Assembly: GCA_963746255.1 (NCBI GenBank)
Contig: CAVVAJ010000006.1
Span: forward strand, 7,922 to 71,921
Length of the DNA stretch: 64,000 nt
DNA from: an uncultured Chloroflexia bacterium
Lineage (GTDB): Bacteria > Chloroflexota > Anaerolineae > Anaerolineales > UBA4823
Direction: 5' to 3'
Position 1 is the stretch's first letter, and the number at the start of each line of letters is the position of its first letter. Shown here in pieces: positions 49,172 through 64,000 of this stretch. A program made the position numbers and the translations under genes. The notes below the pieces were generated by a model. The model made no database searches. It was not told the origin of the DNA and worked only from the letters and a program-made list of their open reading frames with translations.

Positions 49172-50440
49172 ATGACTTCTGATCTACACCAACGCTTGAA
49201 AATCCCTTACGACCGTCTAGATGACATTAACACAATCCTACTCGATCAAGATTTGCGAGTGATAACTGATTTCTTCGATGTGGTCGCCCGATATGGATCG
49301 CCTGAAGATATTAATCGTCAAGCTCAAGCAGCACGTCACCTACCAACTTTATTAAGTAAGATAGAAGCAGCTACACCGGAGTATTACCAAGACCTGCAGT
49401 GGCTCATCGCCAAGCGCGACGCTAAGGAATTTATCAGCGAGACAGATTACCGCAAAAAAGTACTCGGAAATAAATTCAATCAGACATCGTTTAGAGATGA
49501 ATTCGCAGTAACACTTGAAATTAGCGCCGCCCAATACTTTCCATGGATAAGGGCAGCTGCTGAACGTGCGATTGATCGAGGTGAGCTGATGCCTGGCCGG
49601 TTCATCCGAGTACGCAAGATGAAGGAGCAAGAAGCCGATGGCGACTTGACTGCCTTTGCAGCTGCAATGCAGATTATCGGCGCCAGTTACGTAGAAACCC
49701 TGGATACGAAAGGCACGGATGGCTCAAATGTCCACCTGGGTGGTCCTGACACCATAACAGGTTATTTCGGTGGTATCGGACAACCCAATCAGCATGCATT
49801 GAAATGGCTGGATGAGTTCTTGTATTATTACACCAAGTACGGTGTGCAGCAGGTACTGAATATAAACCCAGGAACCGTCCTGCTGGGGTATTTTCTGTAC
49901 CGGATTGGTGTGGACATCCAGTTCAAGATATCTGTATTCATGGGAAATGACAACCCGTATGCCGGTTTTTGGACCCTGCTGGGGGCTAAACTGTTCGCCC
50001 GCGATGATGGGAGCTCTCCCTTGATAGGTTTCAATTGGTCTAATTCGGTGGACAATGAAACCATGGAGATCACAGCCCAATTCCGTGAACCACTGGGTTT
50101 TGAAGATGTCGTGCGTTTTGAGCATCACATTACTGAAACCTATAAAAGCATCGTTCGCCAACCATACAACCGCCGTGACGAATTAGTCACTATTGCAGGA
50201 GATGTAGCAAACATATCGGCTAAACATGAAGGCGGTGACCCAGATATTGACAGCCAACGCAGTCACCCATCAGACATTTTAGATTATTTCAGGGACAAGG
50301 AAGAGATAATCGAAGCAGGCGATTGGGATAATTTGCTGCAGAATTTCATGGATAAATTCGATGCAACCAATCGGACTGCACAAGCTTTGACCGAGAACGG
50401 GCTGTCGTTTATTGCCGCGAATAAATTACATCATGTATAG
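49172..50440 (+). CDS. Conserved-looking hypothetical protein, family not recognised
   Basis: A 422-aa ORF with clean coding character. No motif known to me. Confidence 0.5.
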   Translation: MTSDLHQRLKIPYDRLDDINTILLDQDLRVITDFFDVVARYGSPEDINRQAQAARHLPTLLSKIEAATPEYYQDLQWLIAKRDAKEFISETDYRKKVLGNKFNQTSFRDEFAVTLEISAAQYFPWIRAAAERAIDRGELMPGRFIRVRKMKEQEADGDLTAFAAAMQIIGASYVETLDTKGTDGSNVHLGGPDTITGYFGGIGQPNQHALKWLDEFLYYYTKYGVQQVLNINPGTVLLGYFLYRIGVDIQFKISVFMGNDNPYAGFWTLLGAKLFARDDGSSPLIGFNWSNSVDNETMEITAQFREPLGFEDVVRFEHHITETYKSIVRQPYNRRDELVTIAGDVANISAKHEGGDPDIDSQRSHPSDILDYFRDKEEIIEAGDWDNLLQNFMDKFDATNRTAQALTENGLSFIAANKLHHV

Positions 50441-50634: not shown

Positions 50635-52509
50635 ATGATTCCACGCGTAATGGAAGATTTTCTAAAAGCCAGATTGCCCGAACGAACACTTCACAACCGA
50701 TTAATTTGTGAAGAAGATCGATGCTATCTCGAATTTGGTCCGTTAGATGTCGACCGGCTTTCTCGTTTAGACATCGCGGTCGATAACCTTGGTCCAAGAC
50801 TCGTAGTATGTATGTGGGACGAGAGTTCTCCACTTGAAATTGGTGGTTTCTTAGTTGTTGATAACCTCGCCATGGGTAGACCTTCTATGGGTGGTATCCG
50901 CATGCTGCCAGATGTAACACCAGCGGCGATTCACAATCTGGCGCGCGGTATGACCTTAAAGAACGCCGCTGCCAATTTACCCTATGGCGGTGGCAAATCC
51001 GGAATAGTTGCCGACCCTGCAGTAGCCGCCGAACAGCACCGCACGATTGTCGAAGGATTCGCCCGGTTGATATACCGCTATAAGGATATTTATCTGCCTG
51101 GCCCCGATGTCGGCACAAACGATGCTGATATGAAAACAATCGCGATTCAAAATGGTATCGACCATGCGTTGTCTAAACCGGTTGAAATGGGTGGCAACCG
51201 TATTGACCAACTAGGTGCCGCGGCAGGTGGCTGCGTTATCGCTTTACAAACGCTGTTGGATGAAATACCGCGCTTGAGGGTTCTCCCTCAATTCCAACCC
51301 CTTGATATCCCCCAAATTGAAGATGTCTCAATATTAATCCAGGGTTTTGGCGCCGTCGGTGCACATGCTGCACGTCTTCTTATGGAACGGATTCCAGGTT
51401 GTTTGGTCACGGGGATCAGCGATGCCCTTGGCTATCTATACGACCCAGCAGGACTTCCAACCCAGGAGCTTTTTGATCTATGGGAATCGCATGGCTTAGT
51501 TACACGCCCGTATGCACAAGCGAACTTCTTGTCCCTTGAGAACGCTGCACCGTCAGTGAAGTACTCAACAGATCCCGATGATCTGCTGCGCGAGTCAGGA
51601 TTTTGCCTGATGCCAGCCGCACCAATAGCCAATTATCTCGATACCGACCCTTCCACGAAACCTTCGATGACCGTTGCCAAAATGGGTAAGTGGTCAGTCA
51701 TCATAGAAGGTGCGAATACCTATTCTCCCGACCCAGCGCGCAAAGCCGCGCGTGCCCGAATGGAAAGGGCTGTTTACCGGGAAAATGGTGTATTGATTGC
51801 TACGGATTATCTAGTCAACTCCGGAGGAGTAATTTTTGCCGCCCAAGAACACCTGATCAAGACACCAGTTGAACTCCGGATTCCTAAGCACATGCTAGGT
51901 GATCGCCAAGCTGTGGATCGCTGGTTAGGTGAAAACGCTTCCGGTTTCGATCAGTTGGCTGAACAGCGCCGAGCCGCAGCAGAGAACTACCGTGATGATG
52001 TAATCCGTCGCAACATGCGCGAATTGGTAGACCTTCTGATAACTGATGCCGATATGCTACCATATGAAGCCGCTGAGAGGATCAGCATTCAGCGGATCGC
52101 CTCAAGTGAATCGGATCGAACAGCCCGCGAGTTGATGGTTCCCATCCCCACAATCACTTCCACCAACACTGCCCAGGATGCTGCTAAATTACTGATTGAT
52201 TCCGGCAGCCCTATCTTAGCTGTCACAGCGACATCTGGAGAATTAGTTGGTGTTGTTACAAGTTGGGACATCACGCGTGCAACAGCGCTCGGCTCCCCAG
52301 ATGACACACCTTTAGAGAAAGTGATGACTCATGAAGTGATTACATCGGCACCTCATGACAGCATCTTGGACATGCTTCGTAAATTAGAGCACCACGAGAT
52401 ATCGGCAATGCCAGTGGTTGACGATGACTGTGTTGTAGGTGTCGTAAGTGCAGATTTATTGGCTACCCGGTCATTGATGCGTCTTGTCCAATCTCAGCTA
52501 CCCACATAA
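50635..52509 (+). CDS. Glu/Leu/Phe/Val dehydrogenase family protein with C-terminal CBS-domain pair
   Basis: ..GGIRM.......NLARGMTLKNAAANLPYGGGKSGI.. contains the catalytic Lys region. A Rossmann motif QGFGAVG follows. The last ~130 aa have CBS character (..SPILAVT..GELVGVVTSWDI.. / ..ISAMPVVDDDCVVGVVSADL..). Confidence 0.8.
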   Translation: MIPRVMEDFLKARLPERTLHNRLICEEDRCYLEFGPLDVDRLSRLDIAVDNLGPRLVVCMWDESSPLEIGGFLVVDNLAMGRPSMGGIRMLPDVTPAAIHNLARGMTLKNAAANLPYGGGKSGIVADPAVAAEQHRTIVEGFARLIYRYKDIYLPGPDVGTNDADMKTIAIQNGIDHALSKPVEMGGNRIDQLGAAAGGCVIALQTLLDEIPRLRVLPQFQPLDIPQIEDVSILIQGFGAVGAHAARLLMERIPGCLVTGISDALGYLYDPAGLPTQELFDLWESHGLVTRPYAQANFLSLENAAPSVKYSTDPDDLLRESGFCLMPAAPIANYLDTDPSTKPSMTVAKMGKWSVIIEGANTYSPDPARKAARARMERAVYRENGVLIATDYLVNSGGVIFAAQEHLIKTPVELRIPKHMLGDRQAVDRWLGENASGFDQLAEQRRAAAENYRDDVIRRNMRELVDLLITDADMLPYEAAERISIQRIASSESDRTARELMVPIPTITSTNTAQDAAKLLIDSGSPILAVTATSGELVGVVTSWDITRATALGSPDDTPLEKVMTHEVITSAPHDSILDMLRKLEHHEISAMPVVDDDCVVGVVSADLLATRSLMRLVQSQLPT

Positions 52510-52587: not shown

Positions 52588-53374
52588 CTATATGATCGCT
52601 GCCAGCATTTTTACAACTGCCTGGTAGACCGGTGATTCATCCCCTAATTCGATCAGCGGTTTCCCGCTGGCGTCAAACTCTGTTAATTCCAGATTTGCTG
52701 GTACAACACCCAGCAGGGGCACATCCAATCGGTCAATTTTCTCTTGTAAGATATCGGGGATGGTACCATTTAAGCGATTCAGTATCAAATAGGAATTTTC
52801 AATATTGATATCTAGTTCTTTTCTGAATTCCGCTATCCGCTCCGCCGCTACAATTTCCTCGCTGCGAAGGATCACTCACAATAAGCAAATGCTCGACATC
52901 ACGGGTCGTCCGCCGGCTTAGATGCTCCATACCAGCCTCGTTGTCAATAATTATAAAAGCGTAATTCTTGCTAATGCTGTCCACTACTTCACGTAAATTG
53001 TGGTTGACAGCACAGTAGCAGCCCTGCCCTTCGGGTTGACCCATTGCGATGAGATCAAAATCGTCTCCTTCAGAAAGCGCTGCGCGCACCTGGTAATCTA
53101 AATATTCCCGTTTGCTGATCCCCCCCGGAAGGGCGCCCATCGTCGCGCCACCTGCAGTCAGAGATTCTTTCACTTGAGCTAACATATCTTCACGGATATC
53201 TCCGATTGTCCAGTCCATTTCTAATCCCAGGACCATATTTAGATTCGCGCTAGGATCCGCATCAATAGCTAATACCGCACCCTTTTGGTTATCAACTAAG
53301 TACTTAATCACCATTCCAGCAATCGTAGTTTTACCTACACCACCCTTTCCCGCCAATGCAATTGTCGTTGACAT
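52588..53374 (-). CDS. CooC-type (MinD/ParA superfamily) nickel-insertion ATPase, apparent 1-nt frameshift
   Basis: GKGGVGKTT P-loop and a CxC motif (GQGCYC). The N-terminal ORF 52799-53374 and the C-terminal ORF 52588-52875 join as ..SDPSQRGIVAAERIAEF.. if one A of the AAA run (plus-strand TTT at 52854-52856) is removed. Confidence 0.7.
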
Positions 53375-55761: not shown

Positions 55762-55934
55762 GTGCGAAATAGCTTTGGAAGTAGGCAAGCGTACAGTCAC
55801 TGTTTCAGCCTGACTCGAAATTAAGGATCCGAGGATCCATCATATTCATTGGCTTGCCGCCACCACCCACGGCAAACAATACACCACTCAATTCAAGTCA
55901 TGGCTAGCATAGCATGCGAGAGGAGGTAAGCCGG

Positions 55935-57956
55935 ATGAGCCAAAATCCCAACGATAGTACTCCCATGCCGAATACGGTTCATTCTAGTAGGTCTAGCCCT
56001 AATATTGGCGTATATATCTGTCACTGCGGGACGAATATCGCAGGAGTTGTGGATGTTGAAGCGGTATCGGATTTCGCCTCACAACTTGAAGGGGTAAAAA
56101 TTTCCCGTACATATCCTTATATGTGCTCGGACCCCGGACAAGAGTTGATCAAAGATGATGTCATCAACCAAAACTTAGACCGGGTCGTTGTCGCCTCGTG
56201 TTCACCATTGATGCATGAGACAACTTTTCGAGCCGCCTGCGGCGAAGCTGGATTAAATCCTTTCCTTTTCCAGATGACCAATATCCGCGAGCACTGTTCA
56301 TGGGTAACCGACGATCGAGCTAGTGCAACGCAAAAGGCAAAATCTCTGGTTTCAGCTGCGATACACCGCGTGGCTCATCATCTACCATTGAACACCCGCC
56401 AGGTAGATGTGGGACAATCCGTACTTATAGTGGGCGGTGGCATTGCTGGAATTGAGGCTGCTCTGCGTTTAGCCGATTCCGGCAAGCATGTCTACTTGGT
56501 TGAGCGACAGCCTAGTATCGGTGGGCACATGGCCCAGCTGTATAAAACATTCCCCACCCTAGATTGTGCAGCTTGAATACTCACCCCGAAAATGGTGTCC
56601 GTCGGACGCCACGAAAACATCACTCTGCTGAGCTACAGTGAGGTTGAATCTGTCCAGGGTTATGTCGGCAATTTCACTGTCACTATCAGGAAAAATCCTA
56701 GGTACATAAACGAAGATTTGTGTACTGGCTGCGGTACGTGCGTAGAGAAATGTCCTTGGAAAAAAATACCTTCAGAGTTTGATCTGGGTAAGGGGAATCG
56801 ACCAGCCATATATTTTTCTTTTGCCCAAGCCGTTCCCCGTATTCCCGTCATCGATGTAAAAAACTGTGCATATTTCCGGAATGGTAAATGCCGGGCGTGT
56901 GAGAAATTCTGCCAAACTGGAGCAATTGACTTCCAACAACAAGCAGAGGTGGTCGAATTCAACATTGGCACGATCATCTTAGCAACGGGATTCAAAGATT
57001 TCGATCCGGGTAAAGCACCGCAGTATGGATATCCAGTACTGGATGATGTCCTCACCGGGATGGAATTTGAACGTATCGTTAACACAGGTGGTCCAACAGT
57101 TGGAGAAATCCGCACCGTAGATGGCCGAAAACCAGAACGGATTGCGATCCTGCATTGTGTTGGCTCACGCGATAAGGATCTTCACGAGTACTGCTCCCGC
57201 GTATGTTGTATGTACTCCTTGAAATTAGCGAAACTTATCCGGGATTATAGTGACGCGGATGTTGTCGAGTTCTATCGTGATATGCGTACATTTGGGAAAG
57301 GGTATGAGGTTTTTTATAAACACGTTCAGGAACAAGGGGTTGAATTCGTTCGCTTTGAGAAAGCTATCGCCGTCAGCCGCCATAATGGCCGGCTGCAAGT
57401 TTCAACAAAGGATATATACAGCGGCGAAGAACTACATACTCTTGTCGATATGGTTGTGCTCAGCACTGGATTTGAGCCCCAAGATGATCAATTAAAGACA
57501 GCCAAGAAGTTCGGCGTCAGCCTCAGCCCCGATGGGTTCTTCATGGAGAAACACCCTAAGTTAGCTCCTGTAGAAACCGCAACGGACGGTGTCTACTTAG
57601 CCGGTGCTTGCCAAAGTCCTAAAGATATTCCGGATAGTGTTGCACACGGTAGTGCAGCTGCGGCAGCAGCACTTTCATTGATGGATGCAGGACATGTAGA
57701 ACTAGAACCTTTTACTACGTATGTAATACCTGAAAAGTGTGGCAGCTGCCACACTTGTGAAGGCCTCTGCCCCTATGGAGCCATACAGATGGTGCCTTTC
57801 GAGGATCGGCTTGTAGCGTCAATCAACGAAGTTCTCTGCAAGGGTTGTGGGGCTTGTGCTGCAGCTTGCCCTTCTAGTGCAGTAGTGCAGCATGGTTTTA
57901 CTGATGCTCAAGTCCTAGCAGAGATTGAAGGCGCCTTATTGGAGAGATTGCAATGA
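55935..57956 (+). CDS. hdrA: Heterodisulfide reductase subunit A (HdrA)-like flavoprotein, predicted selenoprotein (TGA 56574-56576 = Sec)
   Basis: An RBS GAGGAGG precedes ATG 55935. Motifs: VYICHCGTNIAG, FAD motif VGGGIAGIEAAL, ferredoxin inserts CTGCGTCVEKCP and CGSCHTCEGLCP..CKGCGACAAACP. ORFs 55914-56576 and 56592-57956 are in the same frame and read ..FPTLDCAA-U-ILTPKMVSVGRH.. across the TGA. Confidence 0.85.
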
Positions 57957-60900
57957 ATTTGGAGAAAATCAGGACTGGAGTGTATGTTTGCCACTGTGGC
58001 AGTAATATCGCGTCTACAGTTGATGTAGATGATGTCGCGAACTATGCCAGTGATTTACCAGATGTATCGCTTACTCGTCACTATACATATATGTGCTCTG
58101 ACCCGGGGCAGGACTTGATTAAGGATGATATCCAGACACATGCGTTAAACCGGATCGTCGTCGCGTCATGCTCTCCCCTGATGCACGAAGAAACCTTTAA
58201 AAATGCTTGTAAAGCTGCAGGTCTCAACCCCTTCTTTTTCCAGATGGCAAATATCCGCGAACATTGCGCGTGGGTGATTGATGACCGAGTTCAGGCAACT
58301 GCCAAAGCAAAAAATATGGTTTCTGCAGCTGTTCGTCGTGTCCGCCACCATGCACCACTATCTATGCGCAGTGTGGATATGCAGCAATCCGCGCTAATCG
58401 TCGGTGGCGGAATCGCTGGTATTGAGGCTGCACTTCGCTTAGCCGATGCCGGTAAGCAAGTGTATTTGGTGGAACGCGAGCCCAGTATTGGCGGCCATAT
58501 GGCTCAGCTCTATAAAACATTTCCTACTCTAGATTGTGCGGCTTGAATACTTACACCAAAAATGGTGTCCGTTGGACGCCACAAGAATATCCAGCTTTTG
58601 AGCTACAGCGAAGTTAAATCGATATCGGGCTACGTCGGTAATTTCAAAGCCAAGATTCAGCGCTATCCCCGTTACATCGAAGAAGAAAAATGCACTGGCT
58701 GTGGAAAATGTGCTCAAGCCTGCCCGGTGGATACGGTAAATACTTTCGATGTTGGGATCAGCACACGTAAAGCCGCCTATCGCCATTCCGCCCAGGCAGT
58801 GCCCGGCGCTTATGTTATCGAGAAACAAGGTATAGCCCCTTGTAGGGATGCCTGTCCGACAGACCAACGCGCTCAAGGTTATATTGCATTGCTGCGGCAA
58901 AAACGCTATGCAGATGCGTATTGGGCAATTCGCCGAGAACATCCTTTCCCATCAGTTTGCGGGCGGGTCTGTAATCACGCCTGCGAAGATGCCTGCAGCC
59001 GGGGAATATTTGATTCGCCGGTTAATATTATGGGGATTAAACGCTTCATCTCGGATTGGGCTTTTGAGCATCGCAGTGAGTTAGCTTTTACCCAGGATAA
59101 ATCACTGATCGGCTCACCTTTTAAATCCGACCCTAAACCGACCGGCAAAAAAATCGCCATCATCGGTGCAGGACCTGCTGGCCTGACCGCTGCTCTAGAT
59201 CTCGTCCGGTTAGGGCACAAAGTTACAGCTTATGACTCTTCGCCGGTCGCTGGCGGGATGATGCGGGTCGGCATACCCCCGCACCGGTTGCCGCATAAAT
59301 ACCTAGATTGGGAAATTCAACAGATTCTGGAAGAAGGTGTGGAGCTGGAGCTCAATACTAGGGTTGATGATATCGCAAGTCTGCTTGATAACGGCTATGA
59401 TGCTGCCTTGATCGCTTCTGGGGCACACATCGCGAAAAAACTCCCCATTCGTAACTCCAATCACCCCGATAACCTCTTGAGCCTGGATATCCTGCGAAAT
59501 GCATGCTTAGGAAAGAGTCATGATCTAGCCGGTAAAAAGGTAGTAATCCTCGGAGGTGGCAATGTTCGCGTTAGACACTGCCCGTACAGTGCTGCGTCTC
59601 GGTGCGTCAGAAGTACGGCTAGCATGTCTCGAAACCCGAGGTGAAATGCCTGGTTTCGACTGGGAGATCTTGGTCGCTGTTGAAGAAGGAATCGAGATTT
59701 GTCCGGGACGGACTTTTCACGAAATAATCGTTGAAAATGAGCGTATAACTGGGATCCGCTGCTCGAGTGTAATGTTTCATGGTTTCAAGCGCAGCCGGCC
59801 AACTTTCGATATTATCCCAGAAACAGAACACATTTTGCCGGCAGATATCGTTGTTTGGGCGATTGGTCAGCGACCAGACTTCTCCTTCTTACCGCTGGAT
59901 GGCAGCATTAATATCCGTTATCCAATTGGTATCCAGTCTGATGAAGAGATGCTTACCACCAAGCCGGGCGTCTTTACTGCTGGTGACGTGCGCCGCGGGG
60001 TAACATTCTTCGTGGTCGATGCGATCGGAGAGGGTCATAAAGCTGCCCGTAGTATTGATCGCTTCTTGCGCGGTGAGCAGGGGCTCCGCGAACCGAGCAA
60101 ACCTCCCGTTGTCCAATTGGACGCGCAAACGATCGAAAACAAATTAAATGCAGGTGTTGCCAATCGCATGGAAAGAGTACCAATAAAAAGCATACCGGTA
60201 AACCAAAGACACCATAATTTTGAGGAAGTAGACCTGGCGCTAACAGAGGCAGAAGCGCTCGCCGAAGCCGAACGCTGTTTACGCTGTGGAATATGTTCTG
60301 AGTGCCTTGAATGTGTTGTCGCGTGCGAACGAGGTGCCATCGACCATAATATGCAGTCACACTACCTCAATCTAGATGTTGGAACCATCGTATTGGCAAC
60401 CGGCTTTAAAGATTTTGACCCCCGTGCTGTCCCAGAGCTCGGTTTTGGACAAATCGATAATGTGATCACGGCAATGGAATTTGAAAGGCTGATTAATTCA
60501 AGCGGCCCAACCGAAGGCAAAGTCTTGCTGAAGAATGGGCAAGCACCAAAGAGTGTCGCAATTTTGCATTGCGTCGGCAGCCGGGATGATCGCTACCATG
60601 ATTATTGCTCACGGGCTTGCTGCATGTACTCACTAAAGCTCGCCCAGCTCGTGCATGATTATGTCAATGCTGAAGTATTCGAGATCTACCGCGATATGCG
60701 TACTTTTGGCAAGGATTATGAGGAATTTTTCAACCGCACCCGTGAAAAAGGGATCAACTTCTACCATGGGGTAGTCAAATCAATTCAGCGTCAGAATGGC
60801 AAGCTCCTTGTTTCGTGGGACGAGAATTTCTTTAATCAACCTGACCGCGTTGCTGTAGATATGGTAATCCTCGCGACCGGTTTCGAACCCCAGGATGATA

Positions 60901-61400
60901 CCGCTCAAGTGGCGAAATTATTCGGTGTCAGCCGCAGCCGAGATGGCTATTTCCTCGAGCGGCATCCGAAGTTAGCACCGGTTGAGACGGCAACCGATGG
61001 AATTTACTTAGCCGGTGCCTGCCAGAGCCCTAAGGATATCCCGGATAGCGTTGTGCAAGCAGGCGCGGCTGCTGCAGCGGCTTTATCCATTATGGATCAG
61101 GGAACGATAAATATGGATCCGTCGATTGCCCACGTGGAAATTCAGCTATGCGCAGGGTGTGGCCAATGTGTTAATACCTGCCCCTACGAAGCGATTTCGC
61201 TGCAGCCTCTCGATAACCGCGGCCAAATCGCTTCTGTTAACAGCTACTTATGTAAGGGTTGTGGAACCTGTGCTGCTAGCTGCCCTAATAAAGCCATGTC
61301 ATTGATCCATTACAATGACCAGCAGATCATCAGCGAGATTGTGGGCGCACTCCAACCGATTACACCAATCGTACCTGGGCTGGCAGAGATTAAGAGGTGA
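57953..61400 (+). CDS. HdrA-like selenoprotein (TGA 58544-58546 = Sec) with an inserted GltD/NfnB-like NAD(P)H-binding module; one apparent frameshift near 59567
   Basis: The N-terminal ~290 aa and the C-terminal ~350 aa are paralogous to the preceding HdrA. Between them (about 58830-60080) lies CRDACP...CGRVCNHACEDAC, then IAIIGAGPAGLTAA.. and ..VVILGGGNV|ALDTAR.. and ..FTAGDV.. (glutamate synthase small-subunit-like). The frame changes +1 at about 59567. Confidence 0.8.
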
Positions 61401-61404
61401 TGTT

Positions 61405-62822
61405 GTGGATTTTGAACCAAAGATAATTGCTTTCCTTTGTACCTGGTGCAGTTATACCGGGGCAGACACCGCTGGTATAGCCCGCTTGAAAACACCGGCC
61501 AACGTACGTGCGATTCGCGTTCCCTGCTCCGGACGGGTTGCTCCAGAGATTATCATGCGTACATTCGATGAAGGGGCGGACGGTGTGCTGGTTTTAGGCT
61601 GCCATATCGGGGAGTGCCATTACGATTCAGGCAACCACCGCACTGCAAAGCGTATCCCGATATTAAGGTCGTTGATGTCCTTTGCTGGGCTCGATGCTGA
61701 ACGCTTGCGGCTCGATTGGGTTTCTGCATCTGAAGGGGAACGTTTCTCCCGAATTGTAAATGAATTTACCGACACAGTTAAACTGCTTGGGCCAGTTCGA
61801 TGGCGGATTGAAAAATCTTATCAACCCTATCCATCGCAGGTAGATACGGTCGGGAATGTTCCAATGATCCCCGGTCTGCTTTCTCAGACAACAAGAATGA
61901 CTGGTCAGGCTTCTCAGATAAACAGCCAATTAACCCTGAATATTCAGTCCACCGCACAAGAACTACTTGAGAGCGGTCAAGTTAACTGTATCATCGGGTA
62001 TGAGATCGGAACCCACGGCGGACACGCCCAGCGTTTGTTTACTCTCCAGAAGATGCAGAGAGACTGGTATGGAACCAGGATTGCACTCATAACTTAACCA
62101 CCTATCTTAATGACAAGCTAACCTCCACTTCTAATGGTCCTAGACACCAACAAATTGGTATCATCGTAAAACCGTGTGATTGCCGCTCCATAAATATCCA
62201 CCTCGCCGAAAATCGTTACAACCGTGATGACATACACATTATCGCAGTGAGCTGCAATGGTATTCGCCAGGGGGCAGGGACAACAGGACCAACTTTACCA
62301 AAACTAGCTACTTACCAGGCGCGCTGTTTAACCTGTTCACAAGTAGAACCCGTAATTTACGACACCTACCTAGAACAACCAGGTGGTAAAGAAGGTTCAA
62401 CCCTAATACCAGAAAGTGCTGGTCCTCAAACTGCACAGATATATTCGCTATCTACAGAAGAGCGGATGGACTTCTGGTTGGGGCAGTTTGACCGCTGCAT
62501 CCGCTGTTATGCGTGCCGCCAAGTGTGCCCAAGCTGCGATTGCCCGACTTGTTTATACGAGAGGGATGACTCACTCTGGGTAGGTTTAGGTGTTGGCATC
62601 AATGAAAAGCGGACCTTTCACCTCGGGCGCGCATTTCATCTTGCAGGACGCTGTATGGAATGCAACGAGTGCGAGCGAGTCTGTCCCGTTGGTATCCCCA
62701 TCAGCTTACTTAACCGCCAACTAGCTCAAGAAATGGAAAACCTTTTTGACCATCGCGCTGGTGAATATCCCCATCCATCTCCACTGCTTACAATCCTCGG
62801 AGGTCAGGAGCACCTGCCATGA
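61405..62822 (+). CDS. MvhD-like (methyl-viologen hydrogenase delta subunit) domain apparently fused to a multi-Cys 4Fe-4S protein; apparent -1 frame change near 62017-62031
   Basis: GTG 61405 lies 8 nt after AAGAGG. EPKIIAFLCTWCSYTGAD...IRVPCSGRV...GADGVLVLGCHIGECHY is the MvhD signature. The downstream part (open from 62004 in another frame) has CIRCYACRQVCPSCDCPTC and CMECNECERVCP. Confidence 0.7.
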
Positions 62823-62837
62823 TTTACATCAGGCCTG

Positions 62838-63765
62838 GACGACGTACCAGTACCACCCGAAGGAGAAGGACGTCGTCTGGGCGCAGCGGGTCGCCCGCTC
62901 GATGGGGATGCCGCAGCGGATGGTGCTGCCCCAGGGTCGCGACTGGGCGGACCAGCAGGCCACCGTGCGGCGCCGGCTGGAGTTCCAGACGTGGATGCAC
63001 ACCTGGCTCTTCCCGCTGGCCGACGCGCTGCACGACCAGCCGCTGCCGGCATCGACGGCGGCTACGGCGACGCCCTGCTGCGCGCCGACCTGGCAGGCAA
63101 GGCCGCCCGCGGGGACCTGCCGTGGCCGCAGTCGCTCTTCGACGGGATGGGCGGGCGGCGGCTCGACTTCCTCGCCGACGGCGCGGCCGCCCCGCTCCGC
63201 GAGGCTGCCTTGACGGCGTACTCCGACCTGGGCGCGACCGTCGCCGACCACCCCAACCGGCACACCCTCCTGCAGCTGCTCACCCGGCAGAACCGCGCGG
63301 TGACCACCGCGGCGCGACTGCTCGTCGGGCCGGAGACGGAGGTGTGGATGCCGTTCGCCCACCCGTCGGTGGTCCGGGCCGCGCTGGCGGTCCCCCTGGC
63401 GCAGAAGCAGGACCACTGCTACTACCGCGAGATGCTCCGCACCGCCTGCGGCCCCGAGGGCCACCCGTTCGAGCAACCACCCGGGCGCGCGCAGCCAGAA
63501 GGTCCGCAACGCCTTCCTACCCCCGGCCCTCGTCGGGTCGCTGATGGCGACGGTGCGGCGCAGCGAGCGGGCGACCGCCCTGCTCGGGCCACTGCTGCGC
63601 GAGGCTCTGGCGGCCGAGGACGTCGAGCCGCTGCGGCGGCGGCTCCGGCCGGTCGATGTGCTGGCCTGGGCCGCACTGCTCGCCGACGTCGAGGAGGAGT
63701 ACGCCGGCCGGCTGGACTGGTCGGGCTGGCCCGGCGGCTCATCCGACTCCACCCCGTGGGGATAG
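62838..63765 (+). pseudogene. High-GC fragment resembling the C-terminal region of an asparagine synthase-related (PP-loop amidotransferase) protein; frame changes at about 63045 and about 63475
   Basis: A sensible protein is readable only by hopping frames: ..DVVWAQRVARSMGMP.. / ..PETEVWMPFAHPSVVRAALAVPLAQK..YYREMLR.. / ..RSQKVRNAFLPPALVGSLMATVRRSE...TPWG*. There is no 5' end. Composition is completely different from the rest of the window. Confidence 0.4.
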
Positions 63766-63823
63766 TCCAGTGCTCTTTCGGGCCGTTTCGCGGGATTTCA
63801 CCCCGCAAACGCACTGGACTATC
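63761..63823. repeat. 13-bp perfect inverted repeat (hairpin) straddling the stop codon of the high-GC gene fragment
   Basis: GATAGTCCAGTGC (63761-63773) pairs with GCACTGGACTATC (63811-63823). An inner GCGGG/CCCGC stem lies in the loop. Confidence 0.6.
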
Positions 63824-64000
63824 TCTCCTCGCGGGAACGTCTCGTGGGTTCGTCCCTCCGCGCCGTCCCCCGGAGACGCAGCGACCCGCAGGCGTTGACC
63901 TCACGACGAATCGTGACGCCGTCCGGGGGGACGTGCCCGGATCGCCTGCGGGTCGGGTGACTGCGATGGATTCGCCAGCGCGTGGCCCAGTCGAAGCTCG

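What the first reader, a model, noticed from the sequence alone, without database searches (positions are those of the whole stretch)
57953..61400. HdrA with a complete GltD/NfnB-like NAD(P)H-FAD module inserted inside its ferredoxin insert
The second HdrA is collinear with the first except for about 1.25 kb (about 58830-60080) inserted between the two halves of the inserted-ferredoxin region. The first half is CTGCGKCAQACP, before the insert. The second half is CLRCGICSECLECVVACERG, after it. The insert has every hallmark of the glutamate synthase small subunit / NfnB / SudA family: an N-terminal cluster motif CRDACP...CGRVCNHACEDAC, IAIIGAGPAGLTAA, GGGNV-ALDTAR and FTAGDV. The result is a ~1148-aa polypeptide combining a bifurcating-type HdrA flavoprotein with its own pyridine-nucleotide module. 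It could work as a self-contained NAD(P)H-linked electron-bifurcating or confurcating unit, normally a separate-subunit arrangement. I do not know of a characterised enzyme with exactly this insertion topology, and I cannot check databases here.
Basis: partly seen in the sequence, partly recalled or inferred. Interest (0 to 1): 0.7.

Follow-up and report, generated by a model that had tools for sequence, protein, structure and literature searches.

The report
HdrL: HdrA with inserted NAD(P)H module
This is a real but already described fusion enzyme, a heterodisulfide-reductase A flavoprotein with an NAD(P)H-binding flavin module spliced into one of its iron-sulfur domains; the copy here is broken by a one-base insertion that is probably an assembly error.

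Summary
Window 57953-61400 (+) encodes an HdrA-family protein with an NfnB/GltD-type module inside its inserted-ferredoxin domain.

Reading it as one 1148-aa chain needs two things:
- removing one extra base at 59566/59567;
- reading the in-frame TGA at 58544-58546 as selenocysteine. It aligns with Cys197 of solved HdrA and is followed by a conserved hairpin.

The frame break is not conserved. Seven related loci read straight through it. The same 12 kb of the window carries four more single-base frame breaks, including two in cysS, and then a junction to 75% GC actinobacterial-like DNA. Assembly error is the likeliest cause.

The architecture is not new. It was described as HdrL in 2009, as ANME-1 HdrA9-11 in 2022 and as "type III HdrA" in 2025. 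I found it in about 50 species-level genomes from at least eight phyla.

Details I did not see in the papers I read:
- The module is circularly permuted, as in StnC/NfnA of the Bfu-type transhydrogenases.
- Its two ends jointly supply one cluster motif next to the HdrA cluster.
- It has the StnC-type lysine, not the NfnB glutamate.
- In Anaerolineae it always sits in hdrA-hdrL-mvhD~FeS-hydB-like-hydG-like, with no hdrBC nearby.

The function has not been tested biochemically.

The parts
55914..57956 (+). Plain hdrA, the upstream tandem partner: a selenoprotein with an uninterrupted inserted-ferredoxin domain.
   Evidence: Tandem hdrA-hdrL is conserved in all Anaerolineae loci examined.
56574..56576 (+). 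In-frame TGA (Sec) of hdrA, followed by a SECIS-like hairpin at 56593-56611.
   Evidence: Sequence, fold, hairpin statistics.
57953..61400 (+). hdrL (type III HdrA), 1148 aa once the extra base is removed and TGA is read as Sec.
58544..58546 (+). In-frame TGA (Sec) of hdrL, aligned with Cys197 of HdrA 5odc_A. A SECIS-like hairpin lies at 58563-58581 (UGGUGUCC-GUU-GGACGCCA).
   Evidence: Cys-type homologues P0002 and P0003 have TGY at this position.
58691..58726 (+). HdrA inserted-ferredoxin cluster motif 1, CTGCGKCAQACP.
   Evidence: The Cys residues are invariant in 121/121 sequences.
58829..60293 (+). Inserted, circularly permuted NfnB/NfnL-type module (aa 293-780). It contains PCxxxCP, CGRVCNHACEDAC, the FAD-binding GAGPAG, the NAD(P)H-binding GGGNVA, then a linker, then the displaced NfnB N-terminal segment ERVP...EAERCLRC.
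   Evidence: Pfam; 5jca_L aligns as chain 49-473 followed by chain 7-47; 9bov_A and 8oh5_C are collinear; fold match; coordinates.
59566..59567 (+). One extra base (T/C in GTTCGC) that shifts the frame inside the GxGxxA loop.
   Evidence: Absent in L001, L002, L004, L006 and L087-L089.
60294..60326 (+). HdrA inserted-ferredoxin cluster motif 2, CSECLECVVAC, two residues after the module's last Cys.
   Evidence: Invariant in the family. The six-Cys junction is conserved across phyla.
60327..61400 (+). Rest of HdrA: the second half of the FAD domain, including the E356/K409 equivalents E844 and K895, and the C-terminal 2x[4Fe-4S] ferredoxin domain.
61405..62822 (+). mvhD~FeS fusion gene (FlpD domain plus a 4Fe-4S region). 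It is itself broken by a missing base near 62019.
   Evidence: The gene is 452-479 aa and intact in relatives.
62819..62831 (+). First 13 nt of the hydB-like (Fer4_22) gene. Homology to relatives stops here.

Best explanation
The locus encodes an HdrL-type ('type III') HdrA selenoprotein.

An NfnL/StnC-like FAD and NAD(P)H-binding module, with its two [4Fe-4S] clusters, is spliced into the inserted-ferredoxin domain of an otherwise complete, bifurcation-type HdrA.

The module is circularly permuted. The chain enters at PC297xxxC301P, runs through the FAD and nucleotide-binding domains, and returns with ...EAERC775LRC778. The two ends of the insert therefore together supply one NfnB-type cluster motif. 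That motif lies two residues from the HdrA cluster motif C781xxC784xxC787xxxC791.

Inferred mechanism: NAD(P)H reduces the module's FAD. Electrons then pass one at a time through the module's two clusters into the HdrA inserted-ferredoxin clusters and on to the HdrA FAD, or in the reverse direction. The site that canonical HdrA uses for ferredoxin is thereby turned into a pyridine-nucleotide port.

The protein probably works as a heterodimer with the plain HdrA encoded just upstream, which keeps a free ferredoxin site. It probably also works with the MvhD~FeS fusion and with the HydB/HydG-like NAD(P)H:FeS module encoded downstream in relatives.

The frame break at 59566/59567 is most likely an assembly or sequencing error, not biology.
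For: Shown:
- Domain content and order.
- All 16 Fe-S Cys of the junction region are invariant in 121 sequences.
- The permutation: 5jca_L residues 7-47 align after residues 49-473.
- The same order occurs in NfnA 9bov_A and StnC 8oh5_C. In those enzymes the module's FAD is a non-bifurcating NADPH entry that feeds an Fe-S chain (PMC10482914, PMC11829005).
- K363, invariant in the family, aligns with StnC K170, a cluster ligand that is Glu in NfnB (PMC10482914).
- The HdrA bifurcation-signature residues E356 and K409 are conserved as E844 and K895 (PMC12054007).
- TGA aligns with Cys197 (Sec197 in M. maripaludis HdrA; PMC13518236).
- The hairpin is fully paired at 64 of 72 TGA sites and at 0 of 38 TGY sites.
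- The operon is conserved in Anaerolineae.
- HydB/HydG-like proteins match sulfhydrogenase I beta and gamma, 9nez_B (1e-39) and 9nez_C (6e-53).

Evidence that the break is an error:
- Relatives read through it.
- The window has uncompensated 1-nt indels at 52856, 55131, 55230, 59566 and 62019 over 12 kb, two of them in cysS.
- The truncated 360-aa product is a singleton cluster, seen on one 73-kb contig only.
- The contig turns chimeric at 62832.

Inferred, not shown: the direction of electron flow, the HdrA/HdrL heterodimer, and the membership of the complex.
Against: - I found no biochemical or structural data for any HdrL.
- The AlphaFold model gives no coordinates through these tools, so cluster-to-cluster distances and docking could not be measured. 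Its pTM is only 0.69 and the N-terminal 206 residues are poorly modelled.
- Nucleotide preference is ambiguous. The GGGNVA loop suggests NADP by the simple GxGxxA rule. Against that, the YRR[TS] stretch shared by the four aligned NADPH-dependent homologues is replaced by a conserved CLE[PST].
- No reads are available to prove that the extra base is an error.
- No high-potential acceptor module (hdrBC, dsrC, metF) lies within 10 kb in relatives, so the overall reaction is unknown.
Confidence: 0.7

Rival explanations
1. The frame break is genuine, so hdrL is a recently inactivated pseudogene in this population.
For: The break is present in the deposited 73-kb contig, because the 360-aa fragment is on record exactly. 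No in-frame repair is seen in the window.
Against: Both halves remain stop-free and about 90% identical to an intact homologue. The same 12 kb carries four other single-base breaks, two of them in cysS. The contig is also chimeric. Seven related loci are intact.
Confidence: 0.12
2. The break separates two independently translated, functional polypeptides, with the downstream part restarting at ATG 59562 behind the GGAGG at 59550-59554.
For: A Shine-Dalgarno-like GGAGG lies 7 nt upstream of an in-frame ATG in the new frame.
Against: The GGAGG and ATG are simply the Gly-Gly-Gly-Asn-Val codons. The cut falls inside the GxGxxA loop of the nucleotide-binding fold, which would be split. No relative is split there, and 120/120 listed homologues are continuous.
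Confidence: 0.02
3. The module's FAD is a second bifurcating flavin, as in NfnB, so HdrL has two bifurcation sites in one chain. Chadwick et al. suggested this for ANME-1.
For: The module is homologous to NfnB/NfnL, whose FAD bifurcates (PMC9012536). The Arg equivalent to NfnB R201 is conserved as R438. A PyrK/NfnA-family protein, the HydG-like one, is encoded in the operon of relatives.
Against: The closest solved relatives are StnC and NfnA, where the flavin does not bifurcate. HdrL shares their Lys (K363) in place of the NfnB Glu cluster ligand, and shares their permuted order (PMC10482914). The HydG-like protein is closer to sulfhydrogenase gamma (6e-53) than to NfnA/NfnS (5e-16 and 3e-12).
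Confidence: 0.15

Closest known systems
HdrL of Desulfobacterium autotrophicum HRM2 and Syntrophobacter fumaroxidans (Sfum_0824)
   Same: It is described as a heterodisulfide reductase/glutamate synthase fusion. Some copies contain Sec, and it is followed by mvhD (PMC2702500). It was detected in proteomes together with MvhD and an FeS protein (PMC5947623). A Syntrophobacterales MAG locus (L045) shows the same order: motif 1, then PCxxxCP, then the module, then RCLxCGxCSECxxCxxxC.
   Different: Identity in the insert is only 35-45%. Several deltaproteobacterial versions are longer, at about 1500-1600 aa in my read-through translations. They sit with hdrABC or dsr genes (PMC2702500, PMC5947623), not with hydB/hydG-like genes. 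I did not align the named proteins themselves.
ANME-1 HdrA9-11 / 'type III HdrA' of ANME-1 and Bathyarchaeota
   Same: [quoted passage not shown] E356 and K409 are conserved. The proposal is that the module blocks the ferredoxin site and feeds NAD(P)H electrons (PMC9012536, PMC12054007).
   Different: They are archaeal and reported as rare (nine sequences), arising from two separate insertion events. Here the protein is bacterial (Anaerolineae), widespread, Sec-containing and in a different operon. I did not compare the sequences directly.
GltD-like module of StnC (8OH5) and NfnA (9BOV, 9N5U) of Bfu-type transhydrogenases
   Same: These are the best sequence and fold matches to the insert (4e-82; Foldseek 5e-43, 501 columns, rmsd 3.4 Å). 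They show the same permuted order, with RVP...EA.RCL.C after the module. They have the same Lys at the K170 position. The module is likewise inserted into a larger Fe-S host protein.
   Different: Their host is a NuoG/Fdh-like protein, not HdrA. StnC Cys114 is Ala in HdrL. The YRR[TS] stretch is CLE[PST] in HdrL.
NfnB/NfnL of NfnAB (4YLF_B, 5JCA_L) and glutamate synthase small subunit GltD
   Same: The fold matches (TM 0.74-0.77 normalised to the target). They share two [4Fe-4S] clusters, the FAD-binding GxGxxG and the NAD(P)H-binding GxGxxA.
   Different: They are free-standing subunits with the N-terminal segment in front. NfnB has a Glu cluster ligand and a bifurcating FAD.
HdrA of methanogens (5ODC; M. 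maripaludis HdrA with Sec197)
   Same: All four HdrA domains, the cluster Cys residues, E356/K409 and Cys/Sec197 are present (PMC13518236).
   Different: A 488-aa insertion lies before the first Cys of the second cluster motif. No hdrBC is nearby.

Membership tests
HdrA family | N-terminal Cys cluster domain, FAD-binding GGGIAG and a C-terminal 2x CxxCxxCxxxCP ferredoxin domain. | tested here: met
   5odc_A aligns over query 4-292 and 773-1129, E=2.6e-203.
HdrA family | Cys (or Sec) at position 197, in DCxxC/U-ILxPKM. | tested here: met
   TGA at 58544-58546 aligns with C197 of 5odc_A. Homologues have TGY at this position.
HdrA family | FAD-site residues E356 and K409, the proposed bifurcation signature. 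| tested here: met
   E844 and K895 align with them. The criterion is from PMC12054007.
HdrA family | Association with HdrB/HdrC (CCG-domain) subunits. | tested here: not met
   No CCG-domain (hdrB-type) protein was listed within 10 kb on either side in L002, L004, L006 or L087. The rest of the genome was not seen.
HdrL / type III HdrA | [quoted passage not shown] | tested here: met
   Fer4_20 and Pyr_redox_2 lie between HdrA cluster motifs 1 and 2.
HdrL / type III HdrA | An adjacent mvhD gene. | tested here: met
   A FlpD-domain gene lies at 61405-62822. It is conserved in relatives.
NfnB/NfnL (NfnAB-type) | Collinear N-terminal CxxC...CxxxCP segment, then the FAD and NADPH domains. | tested here: not met
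   The order is permuted: chain 7-47 of 5jca_L aligns after chain 49-473.
NfnB/NfnL (NfnAB-type) | Glu ligand of the FAD-proximal [4Fe-4S] cluster. | tested here: not met
   The position is Lys363, invariant in the family.
NfnB/NfnL (NfnAB-type) | An intact NAD(P)H-binding GxGxxA fold. | tested here: inconclusive
   It is present as GGGNVALDTAR only after the extra base is removed. It is broken in the window as deposited.
StnC/NfnA-type inserted GltD module | Module inserted in a larger Fe-S protein, with the RVP...RCLxC segment after the module and Lys at the StnC K170 position. | tested here: met
   The alignments to 9bov_A and 8oh5_C are collinear to query residue 789, and K363 aligns with K170.
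StnC/NfnA-type inserted GltD module | NADPH use, read from the YRR[TS] stretch after strand beta-2 shared by the aligned NADPH-dependent homologues. | tested here: not met
   HdrL has CLE[PST] there, conserved in 119/121 sequences. The true preference has not been tested.
Bacterial selenoprotein | In-frame UGA aligned with Cys in homologues, plus a downstream SECIS hairpin. | tested here: met
   An 8-bp hairpin lies 19 nt after the UGA. All 8 positions pair at 64 of 72 TGA sites and at 0 of 38 TGY sites.
Bacterial selenoprotein | Sec machinery (selA, selB, selD, tRNA-Sec) in the genome. | not testable with these tools
   No tRNA genes are found in the window. The rest of the genome is not available.

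The most novel reading that the evidence does not exclude
The conserved Anaerolineae operon hdrA-hdrL-mvhD~FeS-hydB-like-hydG-like may encode a complete, HdrBC-less, HdrA-based enzyme with two pyridine-nucleotide ports: the HdrL module and the HydG-like FAD/[2Fe-2S] subunit. A ferredoxin port would remain on the plain HdrA. That would make it a third architectural type of ferredoxin-dependent, electron-bifurcating transhydrogenase or NAD(P)H:ferredoxin oxidoreductase, beside NfnAB and Stn/NfnABC. It would be built on an asymmetric HdrA/HdrL heterodimer linked through Sec197.
Probability: 0.2. Interest if true: 0.65.

Novelty: new member of a known kind. Interest (0 to 1): 0.3.

Why it matters
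HdrA is one of the few known flavin-based electron-bifurcating scaffolds. HdrL shows how such a scaffold can swap its ferredoxin port for a pyridine-nucleotide port by taking up a ready-made module.

The architecture is widespread in anaerobic Chloroflexota and several other phyla, yet I found no record of its purification or assay. What this locus adds to the published descriptions gives concrete targets for expression and cryo-EM:
- the permutation and the cluster motif shared between the two ends of the insert;
- the StnC-type lysine;
- the Sec197 codon with its hairpin;
- the conserved HdrBC-less operon with a second NAD(P)H module.

The Cys-type operon (P0002, GCA_019873735.1) would be the easiest version to express.

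For this particular window the practical message is narrower. It is a draft, partly chimeric contig with indel errors, so the broken gene should not be read as biology.

Tried and rejected
1. Programmed frameshift. Rejected because no relative has the extra base.

2. Search for same-species contigs across the break, using GGTGGCAATGTN{0,1}CGCGTTAGACACTGCCCG in metagenome contigs. It found nothing.

3. Exact look-ups.
- The repaired 945-aa protein is not on record.
- The truncated 360-aa fragment is on record as a singleton cluster, but its source contig could not be fetched. The look-up also failed.
- So I could not compare the source contig or its reads.

4. A stop-free-stretch heuristic meant to count frameshifts across the whole window could not tell ordinary gene overlaps from frame breaks. 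The frame-break rate is therefore known only for 50.6-62.8 kb, where a syntenic reference exists.

5. Structure prediction to test docking. The tools return confidence and fold matches but no coordinates, so distances between the module's clusters and the HdrA clusters or FAD could not be measured.

6. Wood-Ljungdahl or sulfate-reduction context. None was seen. The neighbours sampled with Pfam were transporters, signalling proteins, panB, a GDH-CBS fusion and others. The cooC-like genes and cysS were identified from relatives.

7. Rfam has no match for the hairpins.

Full report
**What is in the sequence**

On the + strand, window 55914-57956 and 57953-61400 hold two tandem HdrA-family genes.

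Both contain an in-frame TGA in the motif FPTLDCAA[TGA]ILTPKMVSVGRH, at 56574-56576 and 58544-58546.

The second gene also changes frame at about 59567. There GGT GGC AAT GTT CGC GTT AGA reads GGGNVRVR in one frame, while the next frame reads ALDTAR.

Removing one base and reading TGA as a sense codon gives 1148 aa.

**Domain content**

- Pfam places Fer4_20 (aa 295-373, 5e-19) and Pyr_redox_2 (aa 400-694, 1.3e-47) in the middle of the protein. FAD-binding and ferredoxin-type hits lie on either side.
- Among solved structures, HdrA 5odc_A matches in two stretches, residues 4-292 and 773-1129 (E=2.6e-203). Residues 294-709 match NfnL 5jca_L (2e-58), NfnB 4ylf_B (6e-58), GltD and dihydropyrimidine dehydrogenase.
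- An AlphaFold2 model was made of the full-length Cys-type homologue P0002 (67% identical) with 120 aligned sequences. It has pLDDT 72.5 and pTM 0.69. The insert scores about 85-95. The N-terminal 206 residues are poor because only three sequences cover them.
- Foldseek against the PDB returns NfnA 9bov_A (5e-43, 501 columns, rmsd 3.4 Å), StnC 8oh5_C, NfnL and NfnB (TM 0.76-0.77 to the target) and GltD for the insert. It returns HdrA chains for the rest.
- No listed solved chain covers both parts.

**Exact anatomy of the insertion**

HdrA 5odc ends its first match at ...TIDKE291 and resumes at C293IECGLCAKVC.

In the window protein, C781SEC784LEC787VVAC791 aligns to that motif without a gap. 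The preceding ...EAERC775LRC778GI does not belong to HdrA.

P. furiosus NfnL aligns in two pieces in swapped order. Chain residues 49-473 match query 293-707. Chain residues 7-47 (DRVP...EAERCLQC) match query 739-779. The module is therefore circularly permuted relative to free-standing NfnB/NfnL.

The NfnB N-terminal motif CxxC...CxxxCP is split between the two ends of the insert. PC297xxxC301P lies at the start and C775xxC778 at the end.

The insert is aa 293-780, nt 58829-60293.

All these Cys residues are invariant in 121 family members: 247, 250, 253, 257, 297, 301, 336, 340, 344, 348, 775, 778, 781, 784, 787 and 791.

The six-Cys junction RC[LI]xCGxCxECxxCxxxC recurs in distant versions from WOR-3, Thermodesulfobacteriota, Syntrophobacterales and other phyla.

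The last module Cys is two residues from the first HdrA Cys. I infer that the module's cluster and the HdrA inserted-ferredoxin cluster are neighbours. That is an inference from sequence, not a measured distance.

**Which kind of NfnB-like module**

The best matches are not NfnB. They are the GltD-like modules of NfnA (9bov_A, 4e-82; 9n5u_A) and StnC (8oh5_C, 2e-67), and they align collinearly through the displaced segment. In those proteins the same permuted module is also embedded in a larger Fe-S protein.

Published work shows what this module does there:
- It is the NADPH entry site.
- Its FAD does not bifurcate.
- It passes electrons singly through its two clusters into the host chain (PMC10482914, PMC11829005).

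StnC Lys170 ligates the FAD-proximal cluster and is Glu in NfnB (PMC10482914). The window protein has Lys363 at that position, and it is invariant in the family. StnC Cys114 is Ala307 here.

The stretch after strand beta-2 of the nucleotide-binding fold is YRR[TS] in all four aligned NADPH-dependent structures. Here it is CLE[PST], conserved in 119/121 sequences. From general Rossmann-fold knowledge, an acidic residue there favours NADH. The glycine loop is GGGNVA, which the simple rule used in PMC12054007 would read as NADP. I leave the preference open.

**The HdrA part**

It keeps the FAD-site residues E356 and K409, here E844 and K895. Both are proposed to mark bifurcating HdrA (PMC12054007).

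**Selenocysteine**

The TGA aligns with Cys197 of 5odc_A (DCSIC197ILAPKM). The M. maripaludis enzyme has Sec197 at that position (PMC13518236). According to PMC9012536, Cys197 ligates the N-terminal cluster of the partner HdrA protomer.

Nineteen nucleotides after the TGA lies an 8-bp hairpin, UGGUGUCC-GUY-GGACGCCA.

I compared hdrA and hdrL genes across all fetched loci:

| Codon at position 197 | Sites | Sites with all 8 stem positions paired |
|---|---|---|
| TGA | 72 | 64 |
| TGY (Cys) | 38 | 0 |

The stem is nearly fixed at synonymous positions, while the loop and flanks vary. This pattern fits a bacterial SECIS element. No tRNA gene lies in the window, so the Sec machinery could not be checked.

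**The frame break**

- An 87%-identical relative (L001) has GGCAATGT-CGCG where the window has GGCAATGTTCGCG. That is the only uncompensated indel in 3.4 kb.
- P0001 (90% identical) and the full-length Cys-type proteins P0002 and P0003 read GGGNVALDTAR or close variants without interruption.
- Three closer relatives from independent metagenomes (L087-L089; L087 is 85% identical at the nucleotide level) carry an intact 945-aa post-Sec ORF.
- Against L087, the window has uncompensated single-base indels in conserved genes at five places. These are 52856 (cooC-like), 55131 and 55230 (cysS), 59566 (hdrL) and 62019 (mvhD~FeS). Most lie in short runs of one base.
- Homology stops at 62831. From there the GC content jumps from about 0.5 to about 0.75, and the tail carries a match to an actinobacterial sRNA family.
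- The truncated 360-aa product is on record only as a singleton, from one 73,180-bp NCBI/ENA contig.

A break inside the GxGxxA loop could not give two working halves. The apparent GGAGG-ATG restart signal is simply the Gly-Gly-Gly-Asn-Val codons.

I conclude, at about 85%, that the break is an assembly or sequencing error. A recent pseudogene is the alternative.

**Context**

The window is syntenic with relatives in this order: panB, a 422-aa protein with no Pfam hit, a GDH-CBS fusion, two cooC-like genes and cysS on the minus strand, then hdrA and hdrL.

Downstream of hdrL, relatives carry three further genes:
- an mvhD~FeS fusion of 452-479 aa;
- a Fer4_22 protein of 335-376 aa;
- a NAD_binding_1/DHODB_Fe-S_bind protein of 277-286 aa.

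The last two are homologues of P. furiosus sulfhydrogenase I beta (9nez_B, 1e-39) and gamma (9nez_C, 6e-53) and of AsrA/AsrB. They form a second FAD/[2Fe-2S]/[4Fe-4S] NAD(P)H module. In the window these two genes are lost to the junction at 62832.

No CCG-domain (hdrB-type), dsr or metF gene was listed within 10 kb in relatives.

A scan of one genome per species gave 207 related stretches. Of the best 80 loci, about 50 have the HdrA-insert-HdrA arrangement. They come from Chloroflexota (mostly Anaerolineae), WOR-3, Thermodesulfobacteriota, Syntrophobacterales, Zixibacteria, KSB1, Gemmatimonadota and Eisenbacteria.

In Anaerolineae, every locus with enough flank has hdrA-hdrL, sometimes with a second hdrL, followed by the three downstream genes. 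Most are TGA-type and a few are Cys-type.

**Comparison with the literature**

- Strittmatter et al. [quoted passage not shown] Some copies contain Sec, it is followed by mvhD, and it was proposed to take electrons from NADH (PMC2702500).
- Sedano-Núñez et al. 2018 detected an HdrABC/HdrL/MvhD/FeS set in S. fumaroxidans proteomes (PMC5947623).
- Chadwick et al. [quoted passage not shown]
- A 2025 study named it type III HdrA. It modelled the protein and proposed that the GltD domain blocks ferredoxin access and carries NADH electrons to the HdrA FAD (PMC12054007).

I found no purification, assay or structure.

**Most likely mechanism**

Shown: the domain order, the cofactor-binding residues, the permutation and the conserved partners.

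Inferred:
1. NAD(P)H reduces the module's FAD.
2. Electrons pass singly through the module's two clusters into the HdrA inserted-ferredoxin clusters and then towards the HdrA FAD, or in reverse.
3. The plain HdrA supplies the ferredoxin port in a heterodimer.
4. MvhD~FeS links the C-terminal ferredoxin domains to the HydB/HydG-like module.

The overall reaction is unknown. A ferredoxin-coupled exchange between two pyridine-nucleotide sites is the most novel reading that the evidence does not exclude. I put it at about 0.2.

**Verdict**

The feature is real and correctly observed. It is a new member (Anaerolineae, Sec-type) of a known but uncharacterised kind. The frame break is probably an artefact. 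Interest is modest, at 0.3.

Noticed in passing
window 62832-64000: Homology to all relatives ends at 62831, 13 nt into the hydB-like gene. GC content then jumps from about 0.5 to about 0.75. The tail has no Pfam hits but matches the actinobacterial sRNA family Ms_IGR-5 (RF02471, 53.9 bits against a gathering score of 45) at 63876-64000 (-). This looks like a chimeric join to actinobacterial DNA.
   Followed up: partly
window 52856; 55131 and 55230; 62019: There are uncompensated single-base indels in a cooC-like gene, in cysS (two) and in mvhD~FeS. All of these genes are intact in relatives. With the hdrL break, that makes five frame breaks in about 12 kb.
   Followed up: yes
window 56574-56611 and 58544-58581: Both tandem HdrA genes are selenoproteins. 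Each has a TGA at the Cys197 position, followed after 19 nt by the same 8-bp hairpin. Gene callers split each gene in two at the TGA, giving products of 197-213 aa plus 454 or 945 aa in public data.
   Followed up: yes
loci L010, L029, L017, L038, L039, L042: Some Anaerolineae genomes appear to carry hdrA followed by two hdrL copies in a row. This rests on three N-domain hits and two insert hits on one strand.
   Followed up: no
loci L059 (Armatimonadota) and L084: A plain HdrA without the insert is followed by the same mvhD~FeS, hydB-like and hydG-like trio. The downstream NAD(P)H module therefore also pairs with ordinary HdrA in other phyla.
   Followed up: no
window 49172-50440 (+): A 422-aa protein has no Pfam or NCBIfam hit. 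It is conserved in the same position, between panB and the GDH-CBS gene, in all relatives.
   Followed up: no
window 50635-52509 (+): A Glu/Leu/Phe/Val-dehydrogenase-family protein carries a C-terminal pair of CBS domains (624 aa). It is conserved in relatives.
   Followed up: no
window 59550-59564: The Gly-Gly-Gly-Asn-Val codons (GGAGGTGGCAATG) happen to form a Shine-Dalgarno-like GGAGG 7 nt before an ATG in the shifted frame. A gene caller could annotate a false 612-614-aa 'second protein' there.
   Followed up: yes
loci L087-L089, downstream of the operon: In the closest relatives the operon is followed by a rhomboid gene, a response regulator and cytochrome b/Rieske genes. That hints at some respiratory capacity in these Anaerolineae.
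   Followed up: no
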